Source of the DNA: a virus | Taxonomy: Duplodnaviria; Heunggongvirae; Uroviricota; Caudoviricetes | Length of the DNA stretch: 18,440 nt | Reading direction: 5' to 3' (one strand) | Virus record (IMG/VR): IMGVR_UViG_2534682158_000018 | Position numbers: made by a program | Part shown: positions 1 to 3,000 of the stretch, one piece after another | How positions within the stretch are numbered: position 1 is the first letter of the stretch | How the letters are laid out: every line of letters starts with the position of its first letter

Positions 1-3000
1 TTAACGGATCAACATCCAGATCAGCAGACACGCCACCACCGGCACAGCAAAATCCATCAGGCTTGCCACATCCCAAGCACGCGGATCAAAACCGCCCCAC
101 CACGGCATATTCATTCGCTTGCCATGCCCGAACATTTCGATCCAGCGATATTCTGCCTGGGTGTGTTCACGCGCAATGAAGAACGTACAACCGGCTATCG
201 CCCCGTAAATCCAGTTTCCGGTAAAAAGACCAATCAGTACCTGCGCAGCCACAGCACAAAGCGCATGAAGAAAAGGTGTTATATCCATTACTCCTCCTTT
301 ATCCGATATCGCTTTGGGAAGTTGATAACAACTTCAATTCTGACTCAAGTTCATCAACTCTTTCAGTCAGTTTCTGGATATGGTGAATCAGTGGAACAAC
401 CAGACGTTCGTACATTACACCTTCGGCAACAAGGCCATTGCTGGAAATAGCTTCAGGAGCATCATCTTCGTTAGCTGGTCGCCAGTGTACAAACTGAGGG
501 GCCATTTCTCCTACTTCCTCGGCAATCAATCCGTAGAATCCCCAGTCACGCCTGTCATTTTCGCATTGCGACCTGTACCACACAGGGCGCATCCTGAAAA
601 TGAGATCGGCGTGCTCTGAATCTATTGTCTCTACTGAATGTTTATAGCGGATAGACGATGTTGACCGCAGCACAGACGAAATTGCGGGGTCAGGATTAAG
701 ATAAAGGTTTGCCGCCGCTGTAGTCGTGCCCAACCCCCACAAATAAAACGCTTCACGGCCAGTCAGCGGGTAAAAATCTCCACCATAACGACCGCTTTCC
801 AGAGCGTTCACTTCCAGTTTGTTTTTCAGCTTATTATCAACTTCAGTTTTTGTGTATCTGGAGCTGATATCCTGCTTTGCACTGGTCATATCAGTCTGAA
901 GCGTTGATACTTTTCCGTTAATTGAGGAAATATCTTCCTTGGCTTTACTGACATCTCCCTTTAGCGTTTTGATGTCATCAGGAATTACTGTCGATGTAGC
1001 CATTTGTCTCCCTCACATCCAGCCACGAAGTTGATGCTCAACAACAATCGCGTATTTATCGAATATTGACGATTTTTTTGCATCATTAATGATGCGCACG
1101 CTTACAAAATATCCGTCCTCCTTAACACATACCGGCTCGCCATTTTCAGTCAGCTCTCCGGTTTCTTTGTACACGTTACCTATCACGTCAATAAGAATAT
1201 CATCCTGCATCGACTCGTCATCATAATAGCCAATACTCTCCATAAAGGCCGAAAAGTCGGCCCTGTCGGCAAATTTGAGTGTTAAATCTTTCATTAGATT
1301 GACTCCCCCACCTGAGCATCAGTCAATGCCTTGTGCCATATTCTGAAATTCCTGACATGACCAAATAAATGACGTAACCCGGCTGTAGTCTGGCCTCCAA
1401 TACGGATAATTGCGGTGTTCTGAATACAGGACCATGTGGTTTTTGTTTCGCTGGATATATGCCCGTTACTTACTGAGCACGTAGACTGCTCTGACTTTAC
1501 ACGCATCCCCATAACCATTTTTTCAAGCGATGCGTTTTCGTTTACCCGTCTGTTAGCTCCTCCAATATCGCAATAAGGAAATCCGTCGTAATCTGTTGAA
1601 CGACCGAAGCCAAGAATAATAGCCGCTCCGGTTTGATGACCGCCGGTATCAAAAACACGTGGCGCTGCATTTGGCGTTTTATACCAGTTCTTATGTACCT
1701 CACAAAGAACCGTAAAAGGAAGATTATAAAGATTATTCTTAATTGGAACTGTAACTATATCGCTTGCGCGGGTCGCCGCCGTCGCTCCTGATATAATAAA
1801 AGATGATACACAAGGCCCATCTTCTACTTGTGGGGTGGCCAGATAAATATAGTCACCAGATACGGTTGCCCCGCTCTGCTTAGGAGAATACTGTATCTGA
1901 GAGCCTATTTTTAACTCCCCATCAATTGCCTGAATTGTTGCCTCTGCAAAAATCCATCCGGTAGCTTCGTCCTTTCTGACTCTCGCTGTAATTCTTGAGG
2001 CAGCACCGCCTGTCATATTAATTTCAAGCGTTTGTGTATCAATATACGCATCACCAAGAAAAGTTGTTGCGCTACCGTCATATTTATCAAACCGGATACG
2101 CAACCTTACCTGCAGTTCTGTTTTAAAACGACATGAGGTTGTCACGTGTTTATTATCGCCTGAGACATCAACTGACTTTGTTGCAGCAATTGATGCCATA
2201 TTAATGGCTGAGGTTTGCCCAATCAGAGAATCGTTGCAGACAAACTTTCCATAGGTAAAACCAAAACTATCCTTCCCGGTTTCGGGAACATCCATATTTG
2301 ACGATCGCCCCCAACTGGCAGGGTTTTCCGAATTGAGCATGTAGTTTGTTCTTTGCCCCTCAATAAGCAGGCCATCACGTTCAAATCGTGGCTCGTCAAT
2401 GGCAGCCTCTGTCAGCACACCAGATTTGTTAATATAGGTTGCTTTCGATGCACGTTTAAACTTAACAATCTTGTCGCCAGGCATCGTTATTTCATCGTCA
2501 CCAATAACAATTTTTTTATATGATGGCGAAAAGCCCGTAATCATATCCAGCGAATCGTTAAATGGTATCCACACATCAGGCAGCGGCTGTAAGACATATT
2601 TATACGGCTCCGCAGCCTGGCTTGCGTACTCTCTGGCTGCATCTTCGCTTGCTTTAGCTGCCGTCTGGCTTGCTGCCGATGCTTTCGCTGAGTTCGCAGC
2701 CGCTGTTTCGCTCACCTTTGCGTTGGTTTCACTGGTTTTTGCTGCTTTTTGACTGTTAGCTGATGCAGTGGCAGAAGCAGCCGCCGCGCTTGCAGAACCG
2801 GCTGCCGCGCTCTCGCTTTGGGCTGCTGCAACCTGGCTGTTTTTTGCCGCAGTTTCACTGGCTTTAGCATTCGTTTCGCTGGTCTTCGCTGCCGTCTGGC
2901 TGGACTTTGCGTTAGTTTCACTCGTCTTCGCAGCTTTCTGGCTGTTAGCCGCAGCAGTTGCTGATCCAGCTGCTGAAGTCGCAGAACCGGCTGCCGCGCT

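What the first reader, a model, noticed from the sequence alone, without database searches (positions are those of the whole stretch)
1..1294. Non-lambda three-gene cassette, translationally coupled to the side tail fiber gene, occupies the position of tfa
Lambda follows stf with the fiber assembly gene tfa. Here stf is followed by three small genes with no resemblance to Tfa that I can see: orf93, orf234 and orf95. Each start sits within 0-10 nt of the preceding stop (TAATG overlap at 1294; stop codons embedded in the next gene's Shine-Dalgarno at about 1013 and 299). That predicts obligate co-expression with the fiber and fixed stoichiometry. This looks like a host-range or accessory module of a kind not described for lambda, and its function is not deducible from position alone.
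Basis: partly seen in the sequence, partly recalled or inferred. Interest (0 to 1): 0.65.

Follow-up and report, generated by a model that had tools for sequence, protein, structure and literature searches.

The report
Two-part side tail fibre module
The three small genes after the side tail fibre gene are a common accessory set found in many E. coli prophages and coliphages: a small fibre-linked protein, a mini second fibre that carries its own folding domain, and a small membrane protein, so the arrangement is ordinary although two of the proteins have no tested function.

Summary
Three tightly packed minus-strand genes (orf93 1013-1294, orf234 299-1003, orf95 1-288) follow a lambda-like stf whose C-terminal half is unrelated to lambda's. 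None resembles Tfa.

The cassette is not unusual. It is complete in 720 of 5,426 complete E. coli genomes and occurs in cultured phages (IdasGreatGrand, Tritos, 2G7b; phage 21 lacks the middle gene).

- **orf234** is a minimal distal fibre. It has a 15-residue N-terminal motif shared with the distal fibres of Drexlerviridae, Dhillonvirus, Queuovirinae and T5-like phages, a coiled coil, and a C-terminal Peptidase_S74 intramolecular chaperone with the Ser116/Lys121 dyad.
- **orf93** (phrog_1361) always follows, with overlapping stop and start, the same Stf C-terminal domain in six phage lineages, with or without a distal fibre. It is probably a non-Tfa fibre chaperone or cap.
- **orf95** (phrog_1443) is a confidently modelled three-helix membrane protein with an invariant polar cluster. 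It lies after receptor-binding genes in several phage types and also stands alone in an Aeromonas chromosome. It is probably a host-acting moron of unknown function.

The closest described system is IrisVonRoten Gp22-Gp23-Gp24. Interest is modest.

The parts
1294..3666 (-). stf: the proximal side tail fibre. It has a lambda-like N-terminus (phage_tail_N) and an Ala/Ser-rich shaft. Its C-terminal half is non-lambda.
   Evidence: Pfam phage_tail_N at E 3.5e-67 and phrog_1419 over the full length. 58% identity to lambda orf-401 over 342 aa and none to orf-314. 53% identity over 745 aa to IrisVonRoten Gp22.
1297..2367 (-). Stf C-terminal receptor-binding region. Residues 436-636 are a GTA head-spike-fibre-like domain. 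The terminal ~155 aa end in the conserved RHLFGHxRNFRxWHK motif; in the IrisVonRoten homologue this part was modelled as a galectin-like domain.
   Evidence: NCBIfam NF048003 at E 6.6e-14. PDB 6TB9 Rcc01080 head spike fibre at E 5e-5. tblastn of the last 193 aa finds 205 phage records with the same taxonomic spread as orf93. The galectin-like description is from PMC11990801.
1013..1294 (-). orf93: a small acidic fibre-linked protein (phrog_1361). It is the positional analogue of tfa and is a probable chaperone or cap for the Stf C-terminal domain.
   Evidence: phrog_1361 at E 4e-45. 183 phage records, each directly after the Stf C-terminal domain. Homologues: KarlJaspers 52%, phage 21 51%, VogelGryff 38%, IrisVonRoten Gp23 35%. 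No Pfam, PDB or Tfa match. dN/dS 0.30.
299..1003 (-). orf234: a minimal distal fibre protein with a C-terminal intramolecular chaperone.
   Evidence: Peptidase_S74 covers residues 116-172 (24.6 bits against a cut-off of 22). It matches the C-terminal 240 positions of phrog_3299 at E 1e-138 and several tail-fibre PHROGs. 59% identity over the full length to the KarlJaspers 225-aa protein. dN/dS 0.17.
959..1003 (-). Conserved N-terminal motif of orf234 (MATSTVIPDDIKTLK), the presumed docking peptide.
   Evidence: M1, T3, T5, I7, P8, D10, I11, L14 and K15 are invariant in six distal fibres from five phage groups that otherwise share 21-26% identity. The recombination boundary with the Tritos 346-aa allele falls at 959/960.
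302..658 (-). Peptidase_S74 intramolecular chaperone of orf234 (residues 116-234). Cleavage is predicted before Ser116.
   Evidence: S116 and K121 are invariant. The SSIRYK segment aligns with TSGIEYK of DT57C LtfA, PDB 8HQZ. All alleles and homologues carry PF13884.
1..288 (-). orf95: a three-helix small membrane protein (phrog_1443), probably a moron.
   Evidence: AF2 pLDDT 93.9 with helices at 4-23, 26-53 and 74-94. Invariant residues include H8, R40, E41, Q44, E46, Y47, R48, W49, G65, G66, F67, W72, D79 and P83. 448 clusters at 50% identity, all stand-alone proteins of 63-146 aa.
3687..3706 (-). Terminator-like hairpin between J and stf, just upstream of the module.
   Evidence: GGGCGCCAGAAATGGCGCC followed by a T-run, found in the 99.9% identical locus L004 at 9706-9687. 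Phage 21 has an annotated terminator at the same place.

Best explanation
The region is the distal end of a modular, two-part side tail fibre, followed by a hitch-hiking membrane-protein gene.

**Stf** is the proximal fibre. Its lambda-type N-terminus attaches to the tail. Its C-terminal half is a glycan-binding-type head (a GTA head-spike-fibre-like domain followed by a conserved terminal domain) that needs no lambda-type Tfa.

**orf93** is translated right after Stf from an overlapping stop/start. I infer that it binds the conserved end of the Stf C-terminal domain as a dedicated assembly chaperone or cap. This makes it a functional analogue of Tfa, not a homologue. Where a distal fibre exists, it may also be part of the junction.

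**orf234** is a minimal distal fibre. I infer the following sequence of events: its C-terminal S74 domain trimerises and folds the protein, then cuts itself off before Ser116. That leaves a ~115-residue coiled-coil stub, whose conserved N-terminal 15 residues dock onto the Stf end. Only the domain content and the conserved motif are shown by sequence. The body of this gene, from codon ~15 to the stop, is the exchangeable host-range cassette.

**orf95** is not a virion part. It is a small inner-membrane protein with a conserved His/Glu/Asp cluster at one membrane face. It is carried next to receptor-binding genes and I infer that it acts on the host envelope, for example in exclusion or surface modification.
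For: **Distribution.**
- The whole cassette is present in 720 of 5,426 E. coli genomes.
- The layout is identical in IdasGreatGrand.
- Among 80 IMG/VR loci, every locus with enough downstream sequence shows orf93, a 9-nt gap, a 234-aa or 346-aa MATSTVIP protein, and then orf95.

**orf234.**
- PF13884 scores above its cut-off and is present in all five homologues of 225-574 aa.
- The Ser/Lys dyad and the N-terminal motif are invariant.
- It aligns with the intramolecular chaperone of the solved DT57C LtfA.
- The swap boundaries against Tritos lie at 289/290 and 959/960.

**orf93.**
- 183 phage records carry it, against 205 for the Stf C-terminal domain, with the same taxa and always adjacent.
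- The stop/start overlap with the fibre gene is 1 or 4 nt in lambdoid, Drexlerviridae, Queuovirinae and T5-like phages, the same style as lambda stf-tfa.
- It is retained intact without a distal fibre in 46 of 47 phage-21-type prophage loci and in rV5-like JeffSchatz.

**Precedent.** IrisVonRoten Gp22 was modelled as a proximal fibre with a galectin-like C-terminal domain that carries the Gp24 distal fibre with its intramolecular chaperone (PMC11990801).

**orf95.**
- High-confidence three-helix model.
- It occurs after the tailspike and before int in P22-like Gally and 611R6, after tfa in Halomonas phiHAP-1, and after a J-like gene in a Comamonas prophage.
- It stands alone in an Aeromonas chromosome.

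**Operon structure.** No promoter-like or terminator-like site was found on the coding strand inside the cassette.
Against: **orf93.**
- No direct evidence places it in the virion or shows chaperone activity.
- Its AF2 model is poor (pLDDT 45 from a shallow alignment), so its fold is unknown.
- Its identity between phages does not track the identity of the Stf C-terminal domain. For IdasGreatGrand the figures are 80% and 47%; for IrisVonRoten they are 35% and 70%. So any contact must be with conserved parts, or with the downstream gene.

**orf234.**
- The mature part is very short for a receptor-binding fibre.
- BASEL annotators called its KarlJaspers homologue a 'putative lateral tail fiber chaperone'.

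**orf95.**
- No Pfam, NCBIfam, PADLOC, PDB-sequence or specific fold match was found.
- Its role is inferred from gene position only.
- In this window it has no promoter of its own, so expression in the lysogen is not shown.
Confidence: 0.68

Rival explanations
1. orf93 is purely a structural adaptor, in the manner of T4 gp35/gp36. It would sit between the Stf end and the distal fibre, and in phage-21-type and rV5-type phages it would remain as a terminal cap.
For: - Its gene lies between the proximal and distal fibre genes in five lineages.
- Among lambdoid phages, the orf93 subtype correlates with whether a distal fibre is present. The window type (80-100% identity) always has one. The phage-21 type (51%) never does.
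- orf93 similarity follows the downstream gene rather than the Stf C-terminal domain.
- RefSeq labels IrisVonRoten Gp23 'tail fiber protein'.
Against: - It is kept under the same conservation pattern where there is nothing to connect. All 21 invariant residues are present in the phage 21 protein.
- The published IrisVonRoten model is described with Gp22 and Gp24 only.
- The linkage to the downstream gene may simply reflect physical proximity on the DNA.
Confidence: 0.3
2. orf234 is not a virion fibre. It would be a trans-acting chaperone, or a decayed remnant of a long fibre gene, that has kept only the S74 domain.
For: - It matches only the last 240 positions of the 1,385-position profile phrog_3299.
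- The predicted mature part is only 115 aa.
- The KarlJaspers homologue is annotated 'putative lateral tail fiber chaperone'.
Against: - dN/dS is 0.17.
- The same compact architecture is kept at 59% identity in a virulent phage.
- The N-terminal motif is invariant and shared with the 346-574-aa distal fibres.
- S74 domains are known to act in cis on the polypeptide that precedes them. This rests on established knowledge from endosialidase and T5 pb1 studies, cited in PMC12090712.
Confidence: 0.15
3. orf95 is part of fibre biogenesis, for example a membrane-anchored assembly or release factor for the fibre, rather than a host-acting moron.
For: - It follows the Stf-orf93 module in essentially all E. 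coli lambdoid loci examined.
- It has a strong Shine-Dalgarno sequence 10-12 nt after the preceding stop.
- In phiHAP-1 its start overlaps the stop of the tail fibre assembly gene.
Against: - It is absent from the virulent phages that carry the same Stf C-terminal domain, orf93 and distal fibre.
- It is present after an unrelated tailspike in P22-like phages, with a 240-nt gap.
- It is present alone in an Aeromonas chromosome with no phage genes within 10 kb.
Confidence: 0.1
4. The whole cassette is a set of unrelated morons, or anti-defence genes, that merely occupy the end of the late operon.
For: - The cassette sits at the prophage end, about 1 kb from zinT.
- orf93 is small and very acidic.
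- Two of the three proteins have no annotated function.
Against: - orf93 is strictly adjacent to, and overlaps, one particular fibre C-terminal domain in temperate and virulent phages of six lineages.
- orf234 has clear tail-fibre domains.
- No PADLOC hits were found.
Confidence: 0.05

Closest known systems
IrisVonRoten (Bas32, Tequintavirus) lateral tail fibre locus Gp22-Gp23-Gp24 (Humolli et al. 2025, PMC11990801)
   Same: - The proximal fibre is homologous over its C-terminal ~660 aa (53% identity).
- A 92-aa gene starts on the stop codon of the fibre gene (35% identity to orf93).
- The next gene begins with the same M-x-T-x-T-x-IP-x-DI-x-x-LK motif and ends in a Peptidase_S74 intramolecular chaperone.
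   Different: - Gp24 is a 574-aa 'T-shaped' fibre with two receptor-binding domains. orf234 lacks about 350 central residues and keeps only a coiled coil and a short pre-cleavage segment.
- IrisVonRoten has no orf95.
- The N-terminal attachment end of the proximal fibre is T5-type there and lambda-type here.
Lambda stf-tfa
   Same: - The N-terminal 342 aa of Stf are shared (58% identity).
- A small gene starts on the stop codon of the fibre gene, at the same operon position.
   Different: - The C-terminal half of Stf is unrelated to lambda's.
- orf93 has no detectable similarity to Tfa.
- Lambda has no second fibre gene and no orf95.
Phage 21 and related Jouyvirus/Bievrevirus lambdoid phages (OL657228.1)
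   Same: stf with the same type of C-terminal domain, then an orf93 homologue (51% identity), then an orf95 homologue (90% identity), at the same position after J.
   Different: There is no distal fibre gene. orf95 follows orf93 after 12 nt in 46 of 47 such loci.
T5 pb1 and DT57C LtfA/LtfB fibres with intramolecular chaperones (Golomidova et al. 2016, PMC4728585; PDB 8HQZ)
   Same: - A C-terminal S74 chaperone with the Ser-x4-Lys dyad.
- In DT57C, a second fibre protein attaches to the first through its N-terminus.
   Different: - The LtfB N-terminus (MSRPLMPKSG...) is unrelated to the MATSTVIP motif.
- LtfA has no GTA-spike/galectin-type C-terminal domain.
- There is no orf93 homologue between ltfA and ltfB.
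Receptor-blocking or seroconversion genes placed next to receptor-binding genes (T5 llp, phi80/N15 cor, P22 gtrABC, small membrane proteins of epsilon15). This comparison rests on my own knowledge.
   Same: orf95 occupies the same kind of slot, directly after receptor-binding genes. In P22-like phages that slot lies between the tailspike gene and int.
   Different: - No sequence, family or fold match to any of them was found.
- orf95 has no lipobox.
- orf95 also occurs as a stand-alone chromosomal gene.

Membership tests
Tfa / Caudo_TAP tail fibre assembly proteins (for orf93) | Sequence or profile similarity to Tfa | tested here: not met
   No Pfam family at E<=1. hhalign of a 7-sequence orf93 profile against lambda Tfa gives probability 0.04%. 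No PDB sequence match.
Tfa / Caudo_TAP tail fibre assembly proteins (for orf93) | Gene immediately downstream of the fibre gene, with overlapping stop/start | tested here: met
   TAATG at 1294. The same 1- or 4-nt overlap is seen in phage 21, KarlJaspers, VogelGryff, IrisVonRoten and IMG/VR loci. Lambda stf/tfa share position 3074 of L095.
Tfa / Caudo_TAP tail fibre assembly proteins (for orf93) | Required for folding or trimerisation of the fibre tip | not testable with these tools
   This needs co-expression or deletion experiments, or complex prediction.
Peptidase_S74 intramolecular-chaperone fibre proteins (for orf234) | PF13884 match above the gathering score at the C-terminal end | tested here: met
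   24.6 bits against a cut-off of 22, covering residues 116-172 and profile positions 1-57 of 58. Homologues score 22.4-52.8 bits.
Peptidase_S74 intramolecular-chaperone fibre proteins (for orf234) | Catalytic Ser and Lys five residues apart at the start of the domain | tested here: met
   S116 and K121 are invariant in six divergent sequences. They align with TSGIEYK of DT57C LtfA, PDB 8HQZ.
Peptidase_S74 intramolecular-chaperone fibre proteins (for orf234) | Autoproteolytic release of the chaperone after trimer folding | not testable with these tools
   This needs protein expression and mass spectrometry.
IrisVonRoten-type two-part lateral fibre | Proximal fibre with the GTA-spike-like plus terminal (galectin-like) C-terminal domain | tested here: met
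   53% identity over 745 aa to Gp22. NF048003 and PDB 6TB9 matches. The galectin-like fold itself was not modelled here.
IrisVonRoten-type two-part lateral fibre | ~92-aa gene between the proximal and distal fibre genes | tested here: met
   orf93 against Gp23: 35% identity, E 1e-21.
IrisVonRoten-type two-part lateral fibre | Distal fibre with the conserved N-terminal motif and a C-terminal intramolecular chaperone | tested here: met
IrisVonRoten-type two-part lateral fibre | T-shaped distal fibre with a Gp12-like RBD1 and a T5-like RBD2 | tested here: not met
   In the alignment, orf234 has gaps across the ~350-residue central region of Gp24. It is a minimal variant.
DT57C/phiEco32-type branched fibre | Second fibre with an LtfB/gp15-type N-terminal docking segment | tested here: not met
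   The LtfB N-terminus is unrelated to the orf234 N-terminus.
Known exclusion, defence or seroconversion proteins (for orf95) | Match to a described family (PADLOC, Pfam, NCBIfam) or to a solved or predicted fold | tested here: not met

The most novel reading that the evidence does not exclude
orf93 (phrog_1361) would be the founding member of a new class of tail-fibre chaperone/adaptor, unrelated to Tfa. It would be obligatory for one widely exchanged glycan-binding fibre head, and it would create the socket into which any distal fibre bearing the 15-residue MxTxTxIPxDIxxLK peptide can plug.

orf95 (phrog_1443) would be a new, very small membrane metallo-protein that alters the host envelope to exclude phages.
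Probability: 0.25. Interest if true: 0.55.

Novelty: new member of a known kind. Interest (0 to 1): 0.3.

Why it matters
The module is a plug-and-play host-range system shared between temperate lambdoid phages and virulent T1-like, T5-like, Dhillonvirus and Queuovirinae phages.

Three pieces of knowledge would help fibre engineering of lambda-based vectors and the reading of prophage host range:
- the constant parts (the end of the Stf C-terminal domain, orf93, and the 15-residue N-terminal peptide);
- the exchange boundaries (window 289/290 and 959/960);
- whether orf93 must be supplied together with this type of fibre head.

It also flags two abundant protein families with no tested function: one in at least 183 phage records, the other in 448 clusters at 50% identity. 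For annotation, the practical result is that orf234-type proteins are fibres with a self-cleaving chaperone, not free chaperones or hypothetical proteins.

Tried and rejected
- **orf93 structure.** The only alignment the tools allowed was shallow (32 sequences, 64-92% identical). It gave pLDDT 45, so I ran no fold search on it. A profile search meant to collect distant orf93 relatives returned only close ones among the 120 listed.
- **orf93 against known families.** Pfam, NCBIfam, PADLOC, PDB and lambda Tfa all gave nothing.
- **orf95 fusions.** The profile search against 1.84 billion representatives found no fusions to larger proteins that could hint at function.
- **orf95 neighbours.** Neighbours of distant homologues gave no functional family. 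Only phrog_3108 (unknown function) recurred.
- **DT57C link.** I tested the idea that the orf234 N-terminus matches the experimentally supported LtfB docking segment, and rejected it.
- **Co-variation of orf93 with the Stf C-terminal domain.** Comparing identities across phages showed no correlation, so it does not settle chaperone against adaptor.
- **Literature.** I found no paper on orf93 or orf95.
- **Non-coding RNA.** Rfam found no RNA family in 1-3800.
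Full report
**What is in the sequence**

The window is the tail operon of a lambdoid prophage, read on the minus strand. J lies at 3727-7140 and a 790-aa stf at 1294-3666. Then come orf93 (1013-1294), orf234 (299-1003) and orf95 (1-288).

- TAATG at 1294.
- TGA inside TGAGGGAG, 9 nt before the orf234 ATG.
- TAA followed by AGGAGG, with a 10-nt gap before the orf95 ATG.

The first 342 residues of Stf are 58% identical to lambda Stf. The rest is unrelated to lambda's C-terminal part. 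It carries instead a GTA head-spike-fibre-like domain (NCBIfam NF048003; PDB 6TB9 Rcc01080) and a conserved terminal domain.

All three small ORFs are real genes. Each matches a PHROG family strongly, and median dN/dS is 0.30, 0.17 and 0.19. A simple scan finds no promoter-like or terminator-like site on the coding strand within the cassette. The only strong hairpin lies between J and stf.

**How common it is**

The 1.4-kb cassette is found whole in 720 of 5,426 complete E. coli genomes, at up to 99.9% identity. There it sits at a prophage end next to zinT.

Cultured phages carry it in three forms:
- IdasGreatGrand has the same four genes.
- Tritos, HannyBb and 2G7b have a 346-aa gene in place of orf234.
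- Phage 21 has stf, an orf93 homologue and an orf95 homologue, with nothing between the last two.

Among 80 IMG/VR loci with close orf93 relatives, every locus long enough shows the same order. orf93 is followed after 9 nt by a 234-aa or 346-aa protein starting MATSTVIP, and then by orf95. Among 50 phage-21-type loci, 46 of the 47 usable ones go straight from orf93 to orf95 after 12 nt.

**orf234**

Pfam places a Peptidase_S74 intramolecular chaperone at residues 116-172, above the curated cut-off. PHROGs align the protein with the C-terminal ends of long tail fibres.

It is 59% identical over its full length to a 225-aa protein of the virulent phage KarlJaspers. Its first 15 residues recur in four other proteins:
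- the Tritos 346-aa protein;
- the VogelGryff 388-aa protein;
- IrisVonRoten Gp24 (574 aa);
- an unannotated gene in Dhillonvirus 'rolling'.

In an alignment of six such proteins, nine positions of the N-terminal motif, Ser116 and Lys121 are among the 18 invariant positions, while overall identity falls to 21-26%. All of them carry PF13884. The SSIRYK segment aligns with the corresponding segment of DT57C LtfA, which has a solved structure.

Against Tritos, DNA homology stops at window 289/290 and resumes at 959/960. The exchangeable unit is therefore the fibre body plus chaperone, flanked by the docking motif on one side and orf95 on the other.

I conclude that orf234 is the smallest member of a family of distal fibre proteins. 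Processing before Ser116 and docking through the N-terminus are inferred, not shown.

**orf93**

It has no Pfam, NCBIfam, PADLOC or PDB match and no similarity to lambda Tfa. Its model is unreliable.

The evidence for its role is genomic:
- tblastn finds it in 183 phage records, against 205 for the last 193 residues of Stf. The taxonomic make-up is the same, and in every case checked the two are adjacent.
- The lineages are lambdoid phages, Drexlerviridae, Dhillonvirus, Queuovirinae, T5-like Markadamsvirinae and rV5-like Vequintavirinae.
- Its start overlaps the fibre stop codon by 1 or 4 nt throughout.
- It persists, with all family-invariant residues, where no distal fibre follows.

This favours a role tied to the Stf C-terminal domain: a chaperone or cap that is a functional analogue of Tfa, not a homologue.

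Two observations keep the adaptor idea alive. orf93 similarity between phages follows the downstream gene rather than the Stf C-terminal domain. And within lambdoid phages its subtype correlates with the presence of a distal fibre.

**orf95**

AlphaFold2 gives a confident three-helix membrane protein (pLDDT 93.9; helices 4-23, 26-53 and 74-94).

The family has strikingly invariant polar residues: H8, R40, E41, Q44, E46, Y47, R48, D79 and a WWGGF loop. From the helix order, these should cluster at one face of the membrane. That placement is my inference from the helix boundaries, not a measured feature.

The family comprises 448 clusters at 50% identity, all stand-alone small proteins. No family or fold match was found.

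It lies after receptor-binding genes in several morphotypes:
- after the Stf module in lambdoid phages;
- between tailspike and int in P22-like Gally and 611R6, where a remnant of the 3' end of the fibre gene precedes it;
- after tfa in Halomonas phiHAP-1;
- after a J-like gene in a Comamonas prophage.

It also stands alone in an Aeromonas chromosome. It is absent from the virulent phages that share the rest of the module. I therefore read it as a host-acting moron. Its mechanism is unknown, and exclusion or envelope modification is a guess from position.

**Comparison with what is known**

The closest described system is the IrisVonRoten locus. Gp22 was modelled as a proximal fibre with a galectin-like C-terminal domain, and Gp24 as a distal fibre with an intramolecular chaperone that attaches to it (PMC11990801). 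The role of Gp23, the orf93 homologue, is not discussed in the passages I read.

BASEL annotations call the orf234-type gene a 'putative lateral tail fiber chaperone'. The DT57C LtfA/LtfB branched fibre works on a similar principle but uses an unrelated docking segment.

**Verdict**

It is wrong that the module is undescribed or unreadable.

This is a new, minimal, lambdoid member of a known kind of two-part lateral fibre, plus a common membrane-protein moron. Interest is modest. What remains open is the biochemical role of the orf93 and orf95 families.

Noticed in passing
window 3687-3706 (minus strand): A strong terminator-like hairpin (GGGCGCCAGAAATGGCGCC plus a T-run) lies between the J stop and the stf start. 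Phage 21 has an annotated terminator at the same place. It suggests that stf and the cassette are reached only by antiterminated late transcription.
   Followed up: partly
window 2716-3132: A 189-nt tandem repeat (2.2 copies, 88% matches) lies inside the Ala/Ser/Thr-rich shaft of stf, so a shaft segment has been duplicated. Shaft length differs between relatives (Stf is 686-792 aa).
   Followed up: no
window 3667-3726: There is no lom gene between J and stf here, whereas lambda and IdasGreatGrand both have one.
   Followed up: no
L008 (Gally) 3926-4243; L011 (611R6) 3845-3958: P22-like phages carry the last ~20 codons of the S74 fibre gene as a remnant just upstream of their orf95 homologue. 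This indicates that orf95 moved between phage types together with the 3' end of a fibre gene.
   Followed up: partly
L097 5001-5309 (Aeromonas rivipollensis chromosome): An orf95 homologue stands alone between a pirin gene and RIO1 kinase / lipid A acyltransferase genes. No phage genes lie within 10 kb.
   Followed up: no
L010 2499-2996 and L096 5970-6521: A protein of phrog_3108 (unknown function, ~160 aa) lies within three genes of the orf95 homologue in both an Aeromonas phage and a Comamonas prophage. This may be a recurrent partnership.
   Followed up: partly
L092 (phage 4A7) 2376-4792: In phage 4A7, three transposase genes (an IS element) interrupt the 3' part of stf. The orf93 and orf95 homologues downstream remain intact.
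   Followed up: no
L004 5590-5650 (about 350-400 nt beyond window position 1): The sequence translates as ...GGFEPP..., which is typical of a tRNA-like 3' end. It is probably the attachment-site fragment marking the prophage end next to zinT.
   Followed up: no
L094 (Dhillonvirus rolling) 3770 to the end: An unannotated gene starting MVTKTNIPADITALQN follows the orf93 homologue and runs off the end of the linear record. It is a distal fibre missed by the annotation.
   Followed up: partly
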